Origin: a virus
Direction: 5' to 3' (one strand)
IMG/VR virus record: IMGVR_UViG_3300022602_000031
Location: 116,050 to 180,049 of that record
DNA length: 64,000 bases
The notes below the pieces were generated by a model. That model saw only the letters and a program-made list of their open reading frames with translations. It ran no database searches and was not told the origin of the DNA. Below, in pieces: positions 36,893-45,461 of the stretch. Position numbers and translations under genes: made by a program. Numbering within the stretch: the stretch's first letter is position 1; each line of letters opens with the position of its first letter.

Positions 36893-37987
36893 ATGCTATA
36901 TCTAGTTACCCACCCACTTAAACGTCCAGCAGAAAAACAATTAGATTTACTATTAGGTACGCTGGACTTATTTGGCGTTGACTATCAGCAGGTGCCTATA
37001 GATCAAATACCCGCAGGAAGCACAGTTATTACTGATTGTTTTATAATGGAAACCCCGTCGGGTGATCCCGGGCACGACATAGCACAGCAGATTATCGATG
37101 CCTGTACTGGTAGAGATTGTAAACTAGTGTTTTACTACCCTAGCGAAAGTTATGCTACACTATCAGCTAGTTTTACGCCTACCGCACATTTATGTCTAGA
37201 GCGTAGTATTGAAGCACATTTGATCAAATGCGGTGATTGGGACATTATAGGATTTACTAATCATAATTTGCCTGAATTTTTTGCCTGGGTTATCAGTAGT
37301 GATTTTAATCTAGCCAGGTTAGCCTACACACAGCAGGCAATAGATCACAATCCCAAGACACATCGTTTTTTGTTTTTAAACGGGGAACGTCGCCAAGACC
37401 GAGAATATTTTTTTAATCTCTACAAAGATGCTGGCCTACTAGAGTCTAGTATATGGAGTTATAGATCAGGTAAAAGCAGTGAAGGCTTTGGCCCCAATGA
37501 AGATTGGCCGGATCCTTTTGTACACCCTGACTTCCGTTTCTATGCTTATTATCCTAGTCATTTTTATCGTACTAAGATTAGCATCATCAGCGAAACTACA
37601 CAGATGGAGTTCTTTCCTACAGAAAAAACTTATAAGAGCCTAATGCTTGGACACCCATTTGTATTATACGGTGGTAGAGGCAGTTTAGGTAAGCTACAAC
37701 AACTGGGATTTCGCACATTCGGCCCGTGGATTGATGAAAGCTATGATTTAGCTGACTATCCCTTGGAACGTGCTGATCGTACTATTCCATTACTTGATCA
37801 AATTCCCGAAGATATCATTGAGCTAACACAAGAAGTACGTGATCACAATCGACGACAATTTCACGTTGTAGCCCAAAGCATTTATCCTAAATTATTGAAT
37901 ATATTGCAAGATATTGATCGTAGTGTTATAATCAATGAAAGTTTTACAGTTAATACTAGCATATTAAACAAGTATTTTTTGAATTAA
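36893..37987 (+). CDS. Glycosyltransferase-like protein (GT10-like)
   Basis: FLFLNG..R; IISET...PTEKTYKSLMLGHPF..GFRTF. Confidence 0.55.
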   Translation: MLYLVTHPLKRPAEKQLDLLLGTLDLFGVDYQQVPIDQIPAGSTVITDCFIMETPSGDPGHDIAQQIIDACTGRDCKLVFYYPSESYATLSASFTPTAHLCLERSIEAHLIKCGDWDIIGFTNHNLPEFFAWVISSDFNLARLAYTQQAIDHNPKTHRFLFLNGERRQDREYFFNLYKDAGLLESSIWSYRSGKSSEGFGPNEDWPDPFVHPDFRFYAYYPSHFYRTKISIISETTQMEFFPTEKTYKSLMLGHPFVLYGGRGSLGKLQQLGFRTFGPWIDESYDLADYPLERADRTIPLLDQIPEDIIELTQEVRDHNRRQFHVVAQSIYPKLLNILQDIDRSVIINESFTVNTSILNKYFLN

Positions 37988-37990
37988 AAC

Positions 37991-38084
37991 GGAGAGCTGG
38001 CCGAGTGGTCGAAGGCACTTCCCTGCTAAGGAAGCATACGGGCTTAAACCTGTATCGAGGGTTCGAATCCCTCGCTCTCCGCCA
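37991..38084 (+). tRNA. tRNA-Ser(GCT)
   Basis: CTTCC-CTGCTAA-GGAAG, long variable arm. Confidence 0.95.
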
Positions 38085-38131
38085 AGTTTGTGATAAATAA
38101 ATACAATAAACACAAATCCCAGGAGTTTTCC

Positions 38132-39097
38132 ATGAATCAAACAAAAACAATACGTTGGGTATTATACCACGAACCGATTGATCTTTTTATTCGCACAGCA
38201 GAAGCATTCAGCAAAGAAATCAATCGTTTAACTGATGGTCGCATCAACGTAGAAATTTACAGCACCAACGAATTTGCTGAAAAATTTAAAAAAGGTGTAA
38301 ACGTAGAGCCAATGGTTTGGATGCAGGCTGGCGATTGCGAAATGAGCCAGGTTCAAATTGGCGAAATTGCTAACTGGCATAGCCCAGATTTTTGGGCATT
38401 AGAACTACCATTTTTATTCCGCGATCATGATCACGCTACTCGAGCACTAGAAGGCCCAATTGGGCAAAGTATGTTAAAGAATTTAGAAAATACCAGCCCA
38501 GCACGTGGATTGGCATTTACTTACTCAGGTGGATATCGTTGTCTAGCAGTCGACCGTGAAATTAATACAGCAGAAGGTCTTAAAGGACTAACAGTTATTA
38601 CTCAAAAAAATCCAATTACAATCGAGACAGCTGAAGCATTTGGTCTAGTTCCGGTGCCGGTTAATGTTAAAGATCATCTTAACAAAGATAGAAATAAACA
38701 CACAAACTTCAACGGTAATAACGCAGTTGAAACAACATTACCGCGCTACGAAGCAGAAGCAAAAACCGAAGCTCATCGTTACATAGCCGATACACGTCAC
38801 AATATGTATTTGACAAGTATTATCATTGCTAAAGAATTTTGGAATGACTTATCTGCTGAAGATCAAGAATTTATTCAACAGGCCGCACTACACAGCAGTC
38901 GTTTAGAGCGTCAATGGTCAGTGGCTGATGCTAATAAAATTTCTGACAGCAAAGAAGAACAAGATAAGTTGGGTGTTACATACAACAATTTTAGCAAAGA
39001 AGAAACTGCTAAATTAAAACAAGCAACAGCACATTTGTATGAAAAATACTCACAATTTTTTACTCCAGATCTAGTAGATGGAATTATTAAATCCTAA
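38132..39097 (+). CDS. DctP-like solute-binding protein, copy 2
   Basis: LELPFLFRDHDHA and LAFTYSGGYR motifs; GATAAATA at 38092; start moved to 38132. Confidence 0.82.
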   Translation: MNQTKTIRWVLYHEPIDLFIRTAEAFSKEINRLTDGRINVEIYSTNEFAEKFKKGVNVEPMVWMQAGDCEMSQVQIGEIANWHSPDFWALELPFLFRDHDHATRALEGPIGQSMLKNLENTSPARGLAFTYSGGYRCLAVDREINTAEGLKGLTVITQKNPITIETAEAFGLVPVPVNVKDHLNKDRNKHTNFNGNNAVETTLPRYEAEAKTEAHRYIADTRHNMYLTSIIIAKEFWNDLSAEDQEFIQQAALHSSRLERQWSVADANKISDSKEEQDKLGVTYNNFSKEETAKLKQATAHLYEKYSQFFTPDLVDGIIKS

Positions 39098-39722
39098 TAT
39101 CGTTTTTTCAAAATACACAGACAATAAATTAATTGATATAACAGCTCAGGATTTGTTTAGTAATAGACGAATCCTGATTTGCTCTGTGGTCCGCCCTCGC
39201 GAAAATCTAGATCAAAAATATGCTGATTACATTCAAAGTTTGATTCCGTTTTATAAACAACACGGAGTCGATGATGTGTATCTTATTAATTCGTCGGCTG
39301 GTAAATTTGGCCTGGTTAGATTAGAAAAAAATCATCCACAGATTACCAGCCTGTACGATAATAATGCTGACTTTGTTCGAGCATTAGCTACACAGTTGAA
39401 TAAAAAACCCACAGTTGACACTTTGTCCAAATACTGGAGTTATCAGGTTTTAGTTAATAATGGTAAAGTTGAGCAGTTTTACGAACAACCAACTGAAAAT
39501 TATATCAAACATATTATTGATGCCGGATATAAAATTGATCTGGGCAACCATAAGTTTTTTGCTCTAGAAGGAGATCGGGCATTACATCGCCCTTCGTTGC
39601 GGGTAGAAGAACAGCAGTTTGAGCACATAAACATAGAACAAAAACACCTAATCACCGGAGCCATTATGTATTTTAATTTATGGCCAAATAACTTGTTGTA
39701 TAACTATCTAAAGAGTGTATAA
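39078..39722 (+). CDS. Degenerate redoxin (Prx5-like), copy 2
   Basis: LFSNRRILIC...GVDDVYLIN...WSYQVLVNNGKVE. Confidence 0.55.
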   Translation: MELLNPNIVFSKYTDNKLIDITAQDLFSNRRILICSVVRPRENLDQKYADYIQSLIPFYKQHGVDDVYLINSSAGKFGLVRLEKNHPQITSLYDNNADFVRALATQLNKKPTVDTLSKYWSYQVLVNNGKVEQFYEQPTENYIKHIIDAGYKIDLGNHKFFALEGDRALHRPSLRVEEQQFEHINIEQKHLITGAIMYFNLWPNNLLYNYLKSV

Positions 39723-39733
39723 TTAACATTGTA

Positions 39734-39990
39734 TTAATAAGTTTGGACAGACGGTGTGGCGACCATCTGATACTTGTGGTAGTGTGAGTATTGGCAGGCA
39801 GTTGAGCCCCGTGGCATGGAAATGTAATATCGGGTACTCCCGAGGGTATAAGTAATTTTAGAGCCAAGAAAACGTTGCTAGATTCCATGAAAAACACCCG
39901 TGAGGGTTAGCCTTTCGTTGCCGGGTCGCACCCAGCAGGCATTGTGGTCCACAGTCGAAAAGCAGATTTTAGTCTGTCCAAACTTATTAA
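39734..39990 (+). ncRNA. Candidate 257-nt structured RNA
   Basis: Perfect 19-bp terminal inverted repeat; internal hairpins; TATAAT at 39718-39723. Confidence 0.6.
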
Positions 39991-40037
39991 ACGGGGTAGC
40001 CCTTGATAAATAATAACATATACTTGGAGTTTCCCAA

Positions 40038-40994
40038 ATGAGTCAAACAAGAAAAATCCGTTGGTTAATCGCACATGAGCCCGTAGATCTGTTCCTACGC
40101 ACAGCCGAAGCATTTCAACAAAAAATCGCCGAATTAACTAACAACGCTTTTGAAGTAGAAATCTTCACAGCCAGCGAATACAAGACAAAATTTAATAGTT
40201 ACGATAAAAAAGCCGGCCCAATGGTTGAATTGGACGAAGGCAACATCGAAATGAGCCAAATGCATATTACTGAACTAGCAGTATGGCATAACCCAGATTT
40301 TTACGCATTAGAAATGCCGTTTATTTTCCGTGATCATGATCACGCTCAACGTGTACTAGAAGGTCAAATTGGCCGTACAATGTTGGATAATTTAGAACAC
40401 GAAAGTCCAGCTAAAGGTCTAGCATTTACTTACTCGGGTGGCTTCCGTTGTGTTGCCAGCGAAGATGAAGTTACCAGCATTGACCAGTTTAAAGGCGCCA
40501 AGTTTGCTACAGCGGTTAATCCAGTTACTATTGATACCATTGAAGCATTAGGTGCAATTCCTGATGTATTCAGTATCAAAGACTTTGCCAAAAAATTAAC
40601 TGAAGAAGGTAATGATGCCCAGGCATTAGAAACTACTATTCCTCGTTACCTAGCACAATTTAAAACATCAAACAAGAAATTCTTGTTGAATACCAAACAC
40701 AGTTTATTCTTAACTACAATTATTGTTGGTAAGAAGTTCTGGAACGAACTAGATGAAACAACACAGGCCAAGTTCCGTGAAGCCTGTTTGTATGCTAGTC
40801 GTTTAGAACGTCAATGGTCAGTTGAAGAAGCAGATGAATTTGCTGATAAATTAGATCACAGCGATATTGGTGTTACATACGCAGAATTAAGCGATGCTGA
40901 AACTACTAAGTTTAAAGAACTTGTTCAACCACTATATGACAAATACCGTGATTTCTTTTATCCCGGTTTAGTTGATGGAATCATTCAAAGCTAA
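40038..40994 (+). CDS. DctP-like solute-binding protein, copy 3
   Basis: LEMPFIFRDHDHA and LAFTYSGGFR motifs; GATAAATA at about 40005. Confidence 0.82.
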   Translation: MSQTRKIRWLIAHEPVDLFLRTAEAFQQKIAELTNNAFEVEIFTASEYKTKFNSYDKKAGPMVELDEGNIEMSQMHITELAVWHNPDFYALEMPFIFRDHDHAQRVLEGQIGRTMLDNLEHESPAKGLAFTYSGGFRCVASEDEVTSIDQFKGAKFATAVNPVTIDTIEALGAIPDVFSIKDFAKKLTEEGNDAQALETTIPRYLAQFKTSNKKFLLNTKHSLFLTTIIVGKKFWNELDETTQAKFREACLYASRLERQWSVEEADEFADKLDHSDIGVTYAELSDAETTKFKELVQPLYDKYRDFFYPGLVDGIIQS

Positions 40995-41517
40995 TTTACT
41001 CCCTGTTAGTTTTAAAACCACAATCAACAACCGAGAGGCAACTCTCGGTTTTGTTGACGTCTTTGCGAATAGACGTATAGTAATTTACAGTCTACCGACG
41101 TTACTGACTAAATTTGCCTGGGATCAATTACGTGCCTATGAAGAAGCTAATCAACAGATTTTAAATTCTGGAGTCGATCAAATTTATTGTATAAACAGTA
41201 ACGCTGAAAGTCGTATGCTGGCATATTACGCATCTAAGTTCAGCCAAACAGTAGTAGCATTACCTGATTTAAACACTACAGTATTACAGGCCATACAACA
41301 AGAATTTAGCATCGATAAAGAATTAAAAGACCTAGCAAGGCTATGGCAATACATTATTATCGTCAACGATGGCGTCCCAGAAAAGTTGTTTAGTAATCCA
41401 CTTAAAAAGAATATGCCATTAAGAATTGCCAAAAGCCGTCTGTATCAATATCATAATCTAGGGCCAGATGTGGTATTAAAATATTTGACCACACAAGAAA
41501 AAATAAGTACAATATAG
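40972..41517 (+). CDS. Degenerate redoxin (Prx5-like), copy 3
   Basis: VFANRRIVIYSLP...GVDQIYCIN...LPD...WQYIIIVNDG. Confidence 0.6.
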   Translation: MMESFKANLLPVSFKTTINNREATLGFVDVFANRRIVIYSLPTLLTKFAWDQLRAYEEANQQILNSGVDQIYCINSNAESRMLAYYASKFSQTVVALPDLNTTVLQAIQQEFSIDKELKDLARLWQYIIIVNDGVPEKLFSNPLKKNMPLRIAKSRLYQYHNLGPDVVLKYLTTQEKISTI

Positions 41518-41524
41518 TTTTAAT

Positions 41525-41598
41525 GCCCCTTTAGTTAAATGGTATAACGATTGATTTGTAATCATTAATTGGCAGTTCGATTCTGTCAAGGGGCACCA
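41525..41598 (+). tRNA. tRNA-Thr(TGT)
   Basis: TTTGTAA loop; GCCCCTT/AAGGGGC acceptor stem. Confidence 0.9.
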
Positions 41599-42016: not shown

Positions 42017-42964
42017 TTACCAAACGAAGTTTTTAGCATAGTAGTCTACTATGTTTTTTAATTCAGTATCAAATACGGCCTTAGGTTCCCAACCTAGGGC
42101 TTTTATTTTGCTGTCATCAATTGCGTAACGCACATCCTGACCTTGACGCTTGATATTTACATCAAGATGCTCATCATACAATCCCTTACACCCACCCAGG
42201 TAGTACATATCAATAATTTTTTTGGCAATAACAATATTTTGTTCTTCGTAGTTGCCTGAGATATTAAAGATATCGTTTTGTACACCAGCTTCGATTAATG
42301 TAATAATAGCTTCGGCTGTATCGCTGGCGTGTAGCCAGGTGCGGCTTGGCAGGCCAGCATCGTGTAAAGGAATAGGTTTACCTAGACTCAAATACTTAAT
42401 CGAGTGCGGTATAAACTTTTCTGTATATTGTCCGATACCATAGTTATTAGTAGGACGTACAATTACATAAGGTACATCAAATGTACGTGCCCAGGCCAGG
42501 ATCAATTGATCAGCGGCAGCCTTGGTGGCTGAATAGGGGTTACTTGGCTTGAGCAGGTCTGTTTCTTTATGAAAACCGCTGACAATATCGCCATATACTT
42601 CGTCTGTGCTAAAGTGTAGCAGAGTTGGTTTGATCTTACTATTTTTAATAAGTTCTAATAAACGCCAAACTCCGTTGATATTACTTTTTAGGAATACTTC
42701 GCTAGAAGCAATACTATTATCTACGTGTGTTTCTGCGGCTGTATTAATAACATAGTCACATTCGTATAAACGTTCAATGTCATTGATGTCAGTTTCTTCA
42801 TAGGCAAAGTTTGAGTAATCAAAAAATTCGGTTAGCAGTTCTTCGTTTGATGCGTAGGTTATTTTATCAATGCCACGAACAAACCAGCCCTTTTCCAAAC
42901 AGGCACGAGTAACGTGACTACCAATTAATCCCAAACAACCTGTTACATATACTACACGCTTCAT
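42017..42964 (-). CDS. dTDP-glucose 4,6-dehydratase-like (RfbB-like)
   Basis: TGCLGLIG, AAETHVDNS, STDEVYG, YSATK and RPTNNYG motifs. Confidence 0.9.
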   Translation of the reverse strand: MKRVVYVTGCLGLIGSHVTRACLEKGWFVRGIDKITYASNEELLTEFFDYSNFAYEETDINDIERLYECDYVINTAAETHVDNSIASSEVFLKSNINGVWRLLELIKNSKIKPTLLHFSTDEVYGDIVSGFHKETDLLKPSNPYSATKAAADQLILAWARTFDVPYVIVRPTNNYGIGQYTEKFIPHSIKYLSLGKPIPLHDAGLPSRTWLHASDTAEAIITLIEAGVQNDIFNISGNYEEQNIVIAKKIIDMYYLGGCKGLYDEHLDVNIKRQGQDVRYAIDDSKIKALGWEPKAVFDTELKNIVDYYAKNFVW

Positions 42965-43443
42965 ATAGCTCTCCGCAAATTCATATAGCTGGGCTTGCCG
43001 TTGTTGATCCACTCGCTAAAATTTTTATTTAATTCTTCTAAACTGCCAGGCTTGAATACACGAATGTTTGGCAAAGCACGTAAAACCTTTTCGTCATCGT
43101 GTGCCCAGTGTGTAATACCATCATGGCTATAATCCTTGTCACGCCCGCTACCCAGTAATTTAACTGGAATACGTTCGTAGTCAACATAGTTGCGTAGAAA
43201 CTCAAACGGGCGATATAGTAGGAAACTACTCATACTATAGCATACTGGTATTAGACCTTCCTCTGCCATACCAATACCTACACCAATCATAAGTTGTTCG
43301 GCAGCACCTACATTGTAAAAACGATCTGGGTAAGCGTTGCGTATATTATCTAATATACCAAAGCCTAGGTCGGCAGTAACAACACGTATACGGTCGTTCA
43401 CTGACATTTCATCTAGTAGTAATTGGGCACATTCTTTTCTCAT
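42961..43443 (-). CDS. Transketolase C-terminal (pyrimidine-binding) subunit
   Basis: TADLG, NVGAAEQ and GITH motifs. Confidence 0.88.
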   Translation of the reverse strand: MRKECAQLLLDEMSVNDRIRVVTADLGFGILDNIRNAYPDRFYNVGAAEQLMIGVGIGMAEEGLIPVCYSMSSFLLYRPFEFLRNYVDYERIPVKLLGSGRDKDYSHDGITHWAHDDEKVLRALPNIRVFKPGSLEELNKNFSEWINNGKPSYMNLRRAI

Positions 43444-44078
43444 AGGAATTGTTCGTAGTCTTCTGGTTTAAGTACATAGTAATGAGTTAGCAGGCCTTTG
43501 GCAAATGACCATTCAGGTACCTGACTAACACGCAAATTAATTCTGGGCATAAAGGTTTGTAATCGACAAGCAAGTAGTCCAGCGTCGATCTTATCGTACG
43601 CACCCATACCATTGATATTAGCATACACTTCAAGATTGTTGACCTGATTGTCTGTAATAAAACGTAGGCTTTCCCATATACTGCCTTCGGCAGCCTCGCC
43701 GTCACTGATTAAACAATAAACTTTCTTATTAGGAGTTGCTAATGCGTGTCCGACAGCAATAGGCAAGCCAGATCCCAAACTACCTGTAGAACAGTATAAC
43801 TTATTTTCTAGGTCTTTACCTGGATGGATACCGTGTTTGTGTAACAACATAACCGGATCAATGCCGTATTTTTCTTCTAGCATAACATACAAGGCAAGTC
43901 CGGCGTGTCCGTTACTAAGGATGAATACCTCATCATCCTTTTTAACATTATAAATTTCTTCGATGATAGGCAAAGCACTTAACGTACTACTCAAGTGACT
44001 GAGCCGTTCTTGGTAAGTAATATCAACAATGCGTTTCTGTAATTCTACAGTTTTAGACATATTTAATTTGAATCCCAT
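43440..44078 (-). CDS. Transketolase N-terminal (ThDP-binding) subunit
   Basis: LSNGHA, TGSLGSGL and SDGEAAEGSIWE..N (GDG..N-like) motifs. Confidence 0.88.
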   Translation of the reverse strand: MGFKLNMSKTVELQKRIVDITYQERLSHLSSTLSALPIIEEIYNVKKDDEVFILSNGHAGLALYVMLEEKYGIDPVMLLHKHGIHPGKDLENKLYCSTGSLGSGLPIAVGHALATPNKKVYCLISDGEAAEGSIWESLRFITDNQVNNLEVYANINGMGAYDKIDAGLLACRLQTFMPRINLRVSQVPEWSFAKGLLTHYYVLKPEDYEQFL

Positions 44079-44079
44079 T

Positions 44080-44640
44080 TTAATCTTTGAATATAACTAA
44101 TAGTCCACGCTGGCAACGTTCATCTTCACGACTGTTGCGATTAAACAAATGATGACGTAGACCGTATTCGCGACAGCGATAGTAGATTTGATTTAAATTT
44201 TGGAACGCATCTGCATCAAACAGGTTAATGTCGTGGTAAATTAGTATTCCGCTATCGTTGAGCAATTCGGTAAAAACGTGCTCAAACCATTGGTCGGCCT
44301 GAAAGTGGTCACCGTCACTCATAATAAAATCAAACTTTTGATCAGTACCAAATACAAATTCTTTTTCGGGACTGTCTATAATAGTAATACGATCGCCATA
44401 CTTTTCTGTAACACCGTCGGGTCGTACACCGCCCCAGTCGTGCCAGTTATCAACTAATGTATAGTCAAACTCTTGTTGGTTAAAGTCCAGGCCGGCTAAT
44501 ATAGCATCAGTACCTTGTCCTCCCCCAATGCCAATTTCTAAAACCATCTTAGGTTTATTTGCTTGTACTAGGGCGGTAAGCATAGCCGCGTGTGCTACGT
44601 CTACTTTAACTACAGGGTCTTGTCCAAATGGTAATGGCAT
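44080..44640 (-). CDS. Class I SAM methyltransferase
   Basis: LEIGIGGG, SDGDH and GILIYHD motifs. Confidence 0.75.
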   Translation of the reverse strand: MPLPFGQDPVVKVDVAHAAMLTALVQANKPKMVLEIGIGGGQGTDAILAGLDFNQQEFDYTLVDNWHDWGGVRPDGVTEKYGDRITIIDSPEKEFVFGTDQKFDFIMSDGDHFQADQWFEHVFTELLNDSGILIYHDINLFDADAFQNLNQIYYRCREYGLRHHLFNRNSREDERCQRGLLVIFKD

Positions 44641-45461
44641 TATTGTTTTCTCTTAATAAAATCCCGAATACCCTCTTCTAATGAGTATTCAGTCTGAAAC
44701 TTGTATTGCATTTTAGCATATACGGTGTCACAACACCAAATATTGCTTTCATATGCTTTGCTCAAACCCGGCTCGTAAACAACATTGCCGGCACGGCCCG
44801 TGATTGTGCGCCATAGCTCAAGTACTTCTAGATTGCTATACTGTCGACCTGATCCAAAGTTTACAATTTCTCCTTTGGGCCACGGGCTGTTTAATAATAG
44901 CTCAATACCACGTACAAAGTCTTCAATGTAGATAAAGTCGTGATATCCATCACGTAAGGTCATTGGCGCATCGTTAACAAACGCTTCGTATAACTTTGGA
45001 TATAGTCTATGTGGGCGTTCGTTAACACCATAGCCCGAATATATACGAGCAACACAGGTATCTAACCCAAACTGACGGGCATATCCTTGGCACAACAGGG
45101 TAGCCGCACCTTTGGTAGCCTGATACACGTCAACTGGGTTAATAGGGTCTCGTTCGCTACTAGCACGTGGCATAGGGCCGTATTCGGCACTAGACCCTAA
45201 GTTAATAAATCTGGTTGTGGGGTTATAGTTTTTAATACCTTCCAACCAACTGTGTACAATACCAACGTTAGTTTCGTACATTACATTGGCATTGTATATT
45301 TCTCCAGCACAATTAATAACAACATCGGGTTTATGGAAAGCAACAAAGGATACAGGACTAGGACTTAACCTACCCCATTCAATAATTTCGTGTTGTGTAC
45401 CGAAATATTCTTTGAGACTTTTACCGATGAATCCGCTTGTACCGGTTATTACTATTTTCAT
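44640..45461 (-). CDS. NAD-dependent epimerase/dehydratase
   Basis: TGTSGFIG, GSSAEYG and YQATK motifs. Confidence 0.9.
   Translation of the reverse strand: MKIVITGTSGFIGKSLKEYFGTQHEIIEWGRLSPSPVSFVAFHKPDVVINCAGEIYNANVMYETNVGIVHSWLEGIKNYNPTTRFINLGSSAEYGPMPRASSERDPINPVDVYQATKGAATLLCQGYARQFGLDTCVARIYSGYGVNERPHRLYPKLYEAFVNDAPMTLRDGYHDFIYIEDFVRGIELLLNSPWPKGEIVNFGSGRQYSNLEVLELWRTITGRAGNVVYEPGLSKAYESNIWCCDTVYAKMQYKFQTEYSLEEGIRDFIKRKQ

What the first reader, a model, noticed from the sequence alone, without database searches (positions are those of the whole stretch)
39734..39990. 257-nt non-coding element closed by a perfect 19-bp stem
Seen: TTAATAAGTTTGGACAGAC (39734-39752) is the exact reverse complement of 39972-39990. 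The interior is more GC-rich than the flanks and holds TCGGG-tact-CCCGA, CCC-gtga-GGG (GNRA loop), GGGT-cgc-ACCC and ATACT/AGTAT. Two crossing helices (TTGGC/GCCAA and CATGGAA/TTCCATG) suggest a pseudoknot. A TATAAT sits 10 nt upstream and there is no plausible ORF. It lacks tRNA, tmRNA and RNase P hallmark motifs. Inference: an undescribed structured phage RNA.
Basis: partly seen in the sequence, partly recalled or inferred. Interest (0 to 1): 0.75.

Follow-up and report, generated by a model that had tools for sequence, protein, structure and literature searches.

The report
New structured RNA in giant-phage tRNA clusters
The 257-base stretch is a real, single-copy gene for an elaborately folded non-coding RNA; it belongs to a family absent from RNA databases that sits inside the tRNA gene clusters of uncultured giant lake phages, and its job is still unknown.

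Summary
Bases 39734-39752 and 39972-39990 form a perfect 19-bp inverted repeat, unique in the window and in the 180-kb contig.

- **Family:** I collected 24 distinct homologs (255-284 nt) from IMG/VR and lake metagenome contigs. All come from jumbo phages of about 355-375 kb, with one copy per genome.
- **Structure:** A model of 11 helices and 59 pairs is 97.4% paired across them, against 36-40% in slid controls. Compensatory changes occur at 35 pairs, against 5-11 in controls. G·U pairs occur only on the + strand.
- **Context:** The RNA always lies on the tRNA strand. Its usual place is between tRNA-Ser and tRNA-Thr. It either sits 3-8 nt after the tRNA-Ser CCA or follows its own TATAAT-type promoter.
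- **Not a leader:** The DctP-redoxin cassettes that flank it in this window are variable insertions, so it is not a DctP leader.
- **No known family:** Four divergent members gave no Rfam 15 match at E≤10. There is no homology to T4 rnaC/rnaD. The phages encode no SmpB, Ro60, RtcB or reverse transcriptase.
TTGGC/GCCAA is supported. The CATGGAA/TTCCATG pseudoknot is not.

My reading is a new stable, trans-acting, tRNA-cluster RNA of unknown function, closest in context to T4 species 1/2 RNAs and to GOLLD/ROOL. The scan had already flagged this family on other genomes, and one follow-up there reached the same reading.

The parts
39718..39723 (+). TATAAT -10-like box, 10 nt before the RNA; it overlaps the stop codon of the upstream redoxin-like ORF
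   Evidence: Sequence. In 19 of 24 family loci a >=5/6 TATAAT-like hexamer ends 3-12 nt before the RNA. Six of these also carry TTGACA/TTGACT/TTGACC at 17-18 nt spacing. The generic scan did not call a full sigma-70 site in this window.
39734..39990 (+). The whole RNA gene (257 nt)
   Evidence: The covariance model R1 matches it end to end at 280 bits. There are 24 distinct homologs. No Rfam match.
39734..39752 (+). P1 5' arm; pairs with 39972-39990 to give the 19-bp terminal helix
   Evidence: Across the family 18 pairs are modelled, 11 with compensatory changes, and 98% of cells are paired.
39753..39764 (+). Hairpin P2: GGU/ACC stem with conserved GUGGCG loop
   Evidence: All 3 pairs covary and are 100% paired.
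39766..39779 (+). 5' strands of the near-invariant core helices: UCUG (39766-39769) and AC-u-UGUGG (39772-39779)
   Evidence: They pair with CAGA (39963-39966) and CCACA-GU (39949-39955). C-G to U-A compensation occurs in 2 members. UGAUAC and GUGG are invariant in the family alignment.
39791..39867 (+). Domain A: helix TTGGC/GCCAA (39791-39795 / 39863-39867). It encloses a variable insertion site, invariant CCCCGUG, a variable hairpin (39814-39825) and the conserved hairpin UCGGG-UACU-CCCGA (39830-39843)
   Evidence: All 5 pairs of the closing helix covary. The inner hairpins covary: G-C to A-U in 11 of 24 at the top of UCGGG/CCCGA. A possible extra helix GCCC/GGGU is only weakly supported.
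39885..39947 (+). Domain B: helix CCAU/GUGG (39885-39888 / 39944-39947). It encloses the GNRA hairpin (39895-39907), helix GCCU/AGGC (39910-39913 / 39937-39940) and hairpin GGG/CCC (39923-39933)
   Evidence: Helices 8-11, all with compensatory changes. The tetraloop is GUGA, GGGA or GCGA in most members, CUUG in one subgroup, and a long hairpin in the two most divergent members.
39949..39971 (+). 3' strands of the core helices, the invariant asymmetric loop CGAAAAG (39956-39962) and the linker UUUUA
   Evidence: GUCC.C.GU.G.AAAGCA.A is invariant in the family alignment.
39972..39990 (+). P1 3' arm
37991..38084 (+). tRNA-Ser(GCU), the upstream flank of the ancestral tRNA-Ser / RNA / tRNA-Thr unit. 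In this window a DctP-redoxin cassette separates it from the RNA
   Evidence: ARAGORN. In L155, L131, L175, L176 and L178 the same kind of tRNA ends 3-8 nt before the RNA.
41525..41598 (+). tRNA-Thr(UGU), the downstream flank of the ancestral unit. In this window a second DctP-redoxin cassette separates it from the RNA
   Evidence: ARAGORN. In L155, L137, L174 and L175 tRNA-Thr starts 15-22 nt after the RNA.

Best explanation
Bases 39734-39990 (+ strand) are a gene for a previously undescribed, stable, highly structured non-coding RNA of about 255-285 nt. It is carried in one copy in the tRNA gene cluster of a clade of uncultured freshwater jumbo myoviruses (about 355-375 kb, distantly PA5oct/Atu_ph07-like).

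Shown:
- The fold is conserved. An 18-19-bp terminal helix is followed by a small hairpin and two near-invariant long-range helices separated by an invariant AU / CGAAAAG internal loop. These lead to a junction carrying two multi-hairpin domains.
- The RNA has a fixed orientation and place among the tRNAs.
- There is one copy per genome.
- It matches no described RNA family.

Inferred:
- The host sigma-70 RNA polymerase transcribes it. This happens either as part of a tRNA precursor, where it lies 3-8 nt after the tRNA-Ser CCA and 15-22 nt before tRNA-Thr, or from its own TATAAT promoter placed about 10 nt upstream where cassettes have displaced it, as in this window.
- The enzymes that mature the neighbouring tRNAs (RNase E/Z, RNase P, 3' exonucleases) free it. 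The long terminal helix then acts as a clamp that defines and protects both ends.
- The variable peripheral hairpins scaffold an invariant core, which is the working part.

My best guess for the function is that it acts in trans during infection on the translation or tRNA apparatus, either as an RNA-only assembly or as the RNA part of an RNP. This rests on analogy with the other phage tRNA-island RNAs (T4 species 1/2, GOLLD, ROOL). I put about 40% on this class of function, about 15% on a ribozyme, and the rest on unknown. The confidence given here is for the gene-level claim (a conserved, structured, independent RNA gene of a new family), not for the functional guess.
For: - **Structure:** 24 distinct homologs; 59 pairs in 11 helices; 97.4% of cells paired against 36-40% in slid controls; 35 pairs with changes on both sides against 5-11 in controls; 0 of 500 shuffles reach the observed values.
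- **Strand:** G·U pairs are common on the + strand. The A·C combinations that an RNA read from the - strand would need are nearly absent.
- **Selection:** 63 of 257 positions are invariant across all members, in blocks that include unpaired junction residues. The adjacent DctP protein is only 57-65% identical, and flanking intergenic DNA cannot be aligned.
- **Context:** The RNA is on the same strand as the tRNAs in every locus. tRNA-Ser lies upstream and tRNA-Thr downstream in the main clade, with gaps as small as 3 and 15 nt.
- **Promoter:** A TATAAT-like box ends 3-12 nt upstream in the 19 loci that lack an abutting tRNA. Six of them have a near-consensus -35.
- **Copy number:** One copy in three 98-100% complete genomes and in the window's own contig.
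- **No known family:**
- **Precedent for the kind:** T4 species I and II RNAs are part of the same primary transcript as eight tRNAs (PMC2330249). GOLLD and ROOL are phage RNAs often found near tRNA islands (bioRxiv 10.1101/2024.12.08.627333).
Against:
- No terminator follows the RNA. Release from the downstream transcript is therefore assumed, and a role in cis cannot be fully excluded.
- No partner protein was identified. The neighbouring genes are metabolic (DctP-like, redoxin-like, sugar-nucleotide enzymes).
- The functional guess rests on analogy with RNAs whose own functions are unknown.
- The family is confined to one phage clade. The sequences are related, so some of the covariation counts reflect shared ancestry.
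Confidence: 0.8

Rival explanations
1. It is a cis-acting 5' leader for whatever lies downstream: a riboswitch, a processive antiterminator like HK022 put RNA, or a 5' stabiliser.
For: In 19 of 24 loci a promoter-like box sits directly upstream. No terminator follows. In this window a DctP-like gene starts 47 nt downstream, and a DctP-redoxin cassette lies within 5 kb of the RNA in 6 of 11 loci compared.
Against: The downstream partner is not constant. It is DctP, tRNA-Thr (15-22 nt away), tRNA-Leu (6 nt away) or unrelated ORFs. DctP is absent within 5 kb in the L128 group, L148, L160 and L164. The short spacers leave no room for an expression platform. Both ends are locked in one 19-bp helix, so no alternative terminator/antiterminator pairing is apparent.
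Confidence: 0.1
2. It is a highly divergent member of a known RNA class (RNase P RNA, tmRNA, 6S, SRP RNA, Y RNA, GOLLD/ROOL).
For: Its tRNA-island context matches GOLLD/ROOL.
Against: No Rfam 15 model matches four divergent members at E<=10. The CR-I/CR-V motifs are absent, and the two core helices are nested rather than crossing like P2/P4 (sequence; my knowledge of RNase P). There is no tRNA-like domain and ARAGORN finds no tmRNA. Three complete genomes encode no SmpB or Ro60/TROVE.
Confidence: 0.05
3. It is a DNA-level element (a MITE, a recombination site or a replication-origin cruciform) and not an RNA.
For: It has perfect 19-bp terminal inverted repeats.
Against: It is single copy per genome. 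No homolog turned up in the motif scan of prokaryote genome contigs, by BLAST in the GenBank phage collection, or by the RNA model in four cultured jumbo phages. Nine internal helices covary. G·U pairs are tolerated on one strand only, which base-paired DNA would not explain.
Confidence: 0.02
4. It encodes a small protein on the minus strand.
For: In 7 of 21 homologs a stop-free frame spans the element on the minus strand.
Against: That frame is broken in the window and in most members. The frame shifts between members because of 1-2-nt indels. The ORFs start at TTG, and in L131 the ORF runs into the neighbouring tRNA gene.
Confidence: 0.01

Closest known systems
Bacteriophage T4 stable RNAs, species 1 and 2 (rnaC, rnaD)
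   Same: They are small stable RNAs of unknown function encoded inside a phage tRNA gene cluster, on the tRNA strand, and made from the same primary transcript as the tRNAs (T4 annotation; PMC2330249). The host phages share T4-type large terminases.
   Different: No sequence or structure homology: model R1 scores at most 8.5 bits on the T4 region, from trivial hairpins only. The T4 RNAs are 139 and 119 nt, and rnaC ends in a tRNA-like GGTTCGAATCC T-arm, which this RNA lacks. This RNA is about 260 nt, closed by a 19-bp helix, and often has its own promoter.
GOLLD and ROOL RNAs
   Same: They are large, ornately structured phage or prophage RNAs, often next to tRNA islands, with no known protein partner or function (bioRxiv 10.1101/2024.12.08.627333; PMC5737381).
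   Different: No match to their Rfam models. This RNA is two to three times shorter; GOLLD often exceeds 800 nt, and ROOL is about 580 nt from my own knowledge. Whether it self-assembles is untested.
Bacterial RNase P RNA
   Same: It has a terminal helix formed by the 5' and 3' ends, a hairpin immediately after it, a conserved core with variable periphery, and a tRNA-related context.
   Different: It has no CR-I/CR-V motifs and no P4-type pseudoknot topology. It matches no Rfam RNase P model and is smaller than bacterial P RNAs.

Membership tests
Any Rfam 15 family (4227 models) | Covariance-model match at or near the gathering score | tested here: not met
   The whole window at gathering score gives only tRNAs. 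At E<=10 the element and three divergent homologs give nothing, or unrelated snoRNA/lncRNA noise at 11-20 bits.
RNase P RNA | CR-I (GAGGAAAGUCC-like) and CR-V motifs forming the P4 pseudoknot | tested here: not met
   The motifs are absent from the sequence. The two invariant core helices are nested. No RNase P model matched.
tmRNA | tRNA-like acceptor/T-arm domain plus tag reading frame; works with SmpB | tested here: not met
   ARAGORN reports no tmRNA in the window. No Rfam tmRNA match. No SmpB in four phage records, three of them 98-100% complete.
Y RNA / YrlA | Ro60 (TROVE)-binding stem; usually encoded with Rsr/RtcB | tested here: not met
   No Rfam match. No TROVE or RtcB in the phage genomes. 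A host-encoded Ro60 cannot be excluded.
Retron msr-msd ncRNA | Inverted repeats flanking the ncRNA next to a reverse transcriptase gene | tested here: not met
   No RVT_1 domain anywhere in four phage records. The neighbours are DctP-like and redoxin-like genes.
GOLLD / ROOL | Homology to the Rfam models | tested here: not met
   No hit at E<=10.
GOLLD / ROOL | Phage-encoded and located near tRNA islands | tested here: met
   Every locus examined with ARAGORN shows same-strand tRNA genes in the stretch of DNA fetched around the RNA.
GOLLD / ROOL | Self-assembly into multimeric RNA cages | not testable with these tools
   Needs native gels, SEC-MALS or cryo-EM.
T4 species 1/2 RNAs (rnaC/rnaD) | Sequence/structure homology | tested here: not met
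   R1 scored with filters off on the T4 tRNA region gives at most 8.5 bits, from hairpin-only matches.
T4 species 1/2 RNAs (rnaC/rnaD) | Encoded within and co-transcribed with the phage tRNA cluster | tested here: inconclusive
   The position inside the cluster is met: the RNA lies 3-8 nt after tRNA-Ser in 5 loci and 15-22 nt before tRNA-Thr in 4.
MITE / dispersed repeat | Multiple dispersed copies with target-site duplications | tested here: not met
   One copy in the contig and in three complete genomes. The arm sequence occurs only at the two arms.
Riboswitch / cis leader of the DctP gene | Constant association with the regulated gene, plus an expression platform | tested here: not met
   DctP is absent downstream in many loci. 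In several loci a tRNA follows within 6-22 nt.

The most novel reading that the evidence does not exclude
The RNA is a new class of RNA machine made by giant phages. Three forms fit the evidence: a ribozyme acting on tRNA or other RNA substrates; a self-assembling RNA-only particle like ROOL/GOLLD but built from a 260-nt unit; or a decoy that captures a host tRNA-directed defence or translation factor. The evidence consistent with this is an invariant, largely unpaired core held by variable scaffolding helices, and a fixed place in the tRNA array.
Probability: 0.25. Interest if true: 0.85.

Novelty: new variant of a known kind. Interest (0 to 1): 0.62.

Why it matters
Large, intricately folded non-coding RNAs with invariant cores are rare. 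Past examples turned out to be ribozymes, riboswitches, RNP scaffolds or self-assembling cages. Phage tRNA islands have now yielded several unrelated RNAs of this kind (T4 species 1/2, GOLLD, ROOL), and none has a known function. A compact 260-nt example would be an easier object for probing, cryo-EM and pull-downs than the 600-800-nt RNAs, because it shows clear covariation, a defined promoter and defined processing neighbours. It could therefore help explain why phages place such RNAs among their tRNAs. It also adds a missing family to the annotation of huge-phage genomes.

Tried and rejected
- **14-mer from the stem arm against viral contigs.** It returned only chance single matches. The pattern was too short and the scan was wasted.
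- **Two-anchor motif against prokaryote genome contigs.** It returned 4 hits, all chance. Two fall in a cyanobacterial coding region, and none matches the family profile.
- **BLAST of the element.** No real match in GenBank phages or in E. coli genomes.
- **Model R1 on cultured relatives.** PA5oct, Phosso, Atu_ph07 and Vibrio phage 2.275.O gave no match. The 117-kb, 32%-complete contig carrying a 40%-identical DctP also gave none.
- **Promoter-associated motif AGTGTATAMT.** It is not enriched in the window, so it is not a recurrent phage-specific promoter word.
- **Extra helix GCCC/GGGU closing the two central hairpins.** It is plausible, and a 6-bp equivalent can be drawn in L160, but support on the alignment is weak. 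I left it out of the core model.
- **Alternative pairing of CCGUG with UGUGG.** It competes with CCAU/GUGG. The one compensatory change in L131 favours CCAU/GUGG.
- **Fremin et al. 2023 catalogue of IMG/VR structured RNAs (PMC10690425).** Its candidates are 29-151 nt long, so the whole RNA is not there as one unit. No supplementary files were held, so I could not check for fragments.

Full report
**Observation.** The sequence and the repeat finder confirm a perfect 19-nt inverted repeat, 39734-39752 / 39972-39990, with 219 nt between the arms. Allowing up to 3 mismatches, the arm occurs nowhere else in the window: 0.04 matches are expected by chance and 0 of 100 shuffles gave two. The whole element is single copy in the 180-kb IMG/VR contig that holds the window. 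The interior is 49% GC, against 34-40% in the flanks and 39.8% for the window. The + strand folds with z = -3.8 and the - strand with z = -4.3, so single-sequence folding does not tell the strands apart. Rfam 15 finds 23 tRNAs in the window and nothing at the element. A permissive scan of 39500-40200 at E<=10 also finds nothing there.

**Homologs.**
- The DctP-like gene just downstream led to three related viral contigs that carry a 79-80%-identical element at the same place.
- Scans with conserved-block motifs added more from IMG/VR and 14 from metagenome contigs. Those contig names point to lakes; reading TBL..HYPO as Trout Bog Lake hypolimnion is my own knowledge.
- A conserved neighbouring 364-aa protein brought two further loci, one of them much more divergent.
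- In all there are 24 distinct sequences, 255-284 nt long and 64-83% identical to the window's copy.
- The motif scan of 185,579 prokaryote genomes gave only chance hits.
- BLAST against GenBank phages and E. coli genomes gave nothing.
- The covariance model R1 finds exactly one copy in each of three 98-100% complete genomes of 354-374 kb and in the window's own contig.
- R1 finds none in the cultured jumbo phages with the closest large terminase (53% identity: PA5oct; also Phosso, Atu_ph07 and Vibrio 2.275.O).

**Structure.** RNAalifold on 16 sequences gives 59 pairs in 11 helices.
- On a MAFFT alignment that was not fitted to any structure, 97.0% of cells are paired, against 36-40% when partners are slid by 1-3 columns. 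Compensatory changes occur at 28 pairs, against 4-7 in the slid controls.
- On the model-fitted alignment of all 24 sequences the figures are 97.4%, and 35 pairs against 5-11. No shuffle out of 500 reaches the observed values. The fitted alignment leans towards the model, so one search is the cleaner test.
- The fold, in window coordinates:
  - P1, the 19-bp terminal helix (11 of its 18 modelled pairs covary).
  - Hairpin 39753-39764, with a conserved GUGGCG loop.
  - Two near-invariant long-range helices, UCUG/CAGA and AC-UGUGG/CCACA-GU, separated by an invariant asymmetric loop (AU opposite CGAAAAG).
  - A junction bearing domain A: TTGGC/GCCAA closing a variable insertion site, invariant CCCCGUG, a variable hairpin and the conserved UCGGG-UACU-CCCGA hairpin.
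  - The same junction bearing domain B: CCAU/GUGG closing a GNRA hairpin and a GCCU/AGGC-closed hairpin.
- G·U pairs are frequent on the + strand, while A·C combinations are nearly absent. The RNA is therefore read from the + strand, the same strand as the tRNAs.
- 63 of 257 positions are invariant in the family alignment, which includes the two most divergent members. Many of them are unpaired junction residues. Peripheral hairpins vary in length and sequence. This pattern of conserved core and variable scaffold is typical of RNAs with a tertiary fold.
CATGGAA/TTCCATG is not: CAUGGAA lies in a hairpin that changes freely, while UCCAUG is invariant and pairs with GUGG, with one compensatory change in L131. 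ATACT/AGTAT also fails.

**Not coding.** Homologs differ by 1-2-nt indels. Stop-free antisense frames appear in some members but are broken in the window and in most others. They shift frame between members, start at TTG, and in L131 run into the adjacent tRNA gene.

**Context.** The window reads tRNA-Ser(GCU) 37991-38084, DctP-like 38090-39097, redoxin-like 39078-39722, RNA, DctP-like 40038-40994, redoxin-like 40972-41517, tRNA-Thr(UGU) 41525-41598.
- Across the family the DctP-redoxin cassettes come and go. They lie upstream, downstream, on both sides or nowhere near.
- The tRNAs stay. In L155 and L175 the arrangement is tRNA-Ser, 3-4 nt, RNA, 16-18 nt, tRNA-Thr.
- L131, L176 and L178 keep the tight 5' junction. 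L137 and L174 keep the tight 3' junction.
- In the divergent L164 a tRNA-Leu starts 6 nt after the RNA.
- The ancestral unit is therefore tRNA-Ser / RNA / tRNA-Thr, and the window shows a version split by two cassette insertions. This rules out a DctP riboswitch or leader.

**Expression signals (comparative, not measured).**
- In the 5 loci where tRNA-Ser abuts the RNA there is no promoter in between.
- In the other 19, a TATAAT, TATACT or TACAAT box ends 3-12 nt before the RNA.
- In L174, L137, the L128 group and L160 it is preceded by TTGACA, TTGACT or TTGACC at 17-18 nt, which makes near-consensus sigma-70 promoters.
- In the window the box is TATAAT at 39718-39723 with a weak -35. The generic scanner does not call it.
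- A promoter that tracks the RNA's 5' end whenever the tRNA is displaced is good indirect evidence that the RNA starts at the base of P1.
- No terminator follows. The 3' end is presumably made by cleavage in the AU-rich spacer, or by RNase P at the next tRNA, followed by trimming back to P1. These steps are inferred.

**Comparison with known RNAs.**
- Four divergent members give no Rfam match at E<=10.
- RNase P: no CR-I or CR-V motifs, and the core helices are nested, not crossing.
- tmRNA: no tRNA-like domain, ARAGORN is negative, and there is no SmpB.
- Y RNA: no TROVE or RtcB.
- Retron: no reverse transcriptase.
- T4 rnaC/rnaD, the classical stable RNAs of a phage tRNA cluster (PMC2330249), are not homologous: at most 8.5 bits with filters off. 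rnaC also ends in a tRNA-like T-arm that this RNA lacks.
- GOLLD and ROOL share the tRNA-island habit (bioRxiv 10.1101/2024.12.08.627333) but not sequence, fold or size.
- The IMG/VR catalogue of Fremin et al. lists candidates of only 29-151 nt (PMC10690425).

**Mechanism.** What is shown is a conserved fold, one copy per genome, the tRNA strand and tRNA-cluster position, and a promoter or an abutting tRNA at the 5' end. From that I infer a stable trans-acting RNA. It would be released by the tRNA-maturation machinery, clamped at both ends by P1, with an invariant core as the active surface. What that surface does is open. I lean towards a role on the tRNA or translation apparatus, as an RNA-only assembly or an RNP (about 40%). 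A ribozyme is about 15%. A cis role, such as antitermination or 5' stabilisation, is about 10%.

**Earlier notes of this scan.** Other first readers flagged the same family on four other genomes and on this stretch in another window. One follow-up agent on another genome reached the same reading, with T4 rnaC/rnaD as the closest known. I reached my conclusions from my own tests.

**Verdict.** This is a real, conserved, structured RNA gene and a new family within the known, still unexplained category of phage tRNA-island RNAs. Interest is moderate to high for RNA biology.

Noticed in passing
window 38090-39722 and 40038-41517: There are two tandem cassettes, each a DctP-like (TRAP solute-binding family, PF03480) gene followed by an overlapping redoxin-like gene. 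The DctP copy I read (40038) begins MSQTRKIRWLIAHEP, which does not look like a signal peptide. The cassettes move around the RNA and tRNAs in related phages: they lie upstream, downstream, on both sides or are absent. This is an odd auxiliary gene pair for a jumbo phage.
   Followed up: partly
L004, L005, L006, L150, L158, L174, L175, L176, L178 (tRNA-Ser upstream of the RNA): ARAGORN calls these tRNA-Ser genes with anticodon ACT (A34), which is unusual for bacteria and phages. The window's copy has GCT.
   Followed up: no
L160:11275-11310: Five nt after the divergent RNA copy, the sequence GCCCAGATGGTGGAATTGG looks like the 5' half of a tRNA-Leu. ARAGORN calls no tRNA there; the nearest call is tRNA-Leu at 11798-11882. 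It may be an interrupted or degenerate tRNA.
   Followed up: no
window 18290-27021: Twenty tRNA genes lie in dense same-strand arrays, and the window holds 23 in all. Nearby genes include a GroEL-like chaperonin (52031-53650), a tryptophan-halogenase-like gene (18456-20060) and a radical-SAM gene (28105-29553).
   Followed up: partly
window 36893-37987: A 364-aa protein with no Pfam or PHROG match is conserved at 56-67% identity next to tRNA-Met in all related phages. It served as a synteny anchor.
   Followed up: partly
window 42017-45461 (- strand): This is an operon-like run of sugar-nucleotide and related genes: two NAD-dependent epimerase/dehydratases, a split transketolase-like pair and a methyltransferase. 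It suggests phage-encoded glycan or nucleotide-sugar modification.
   Followed up: no
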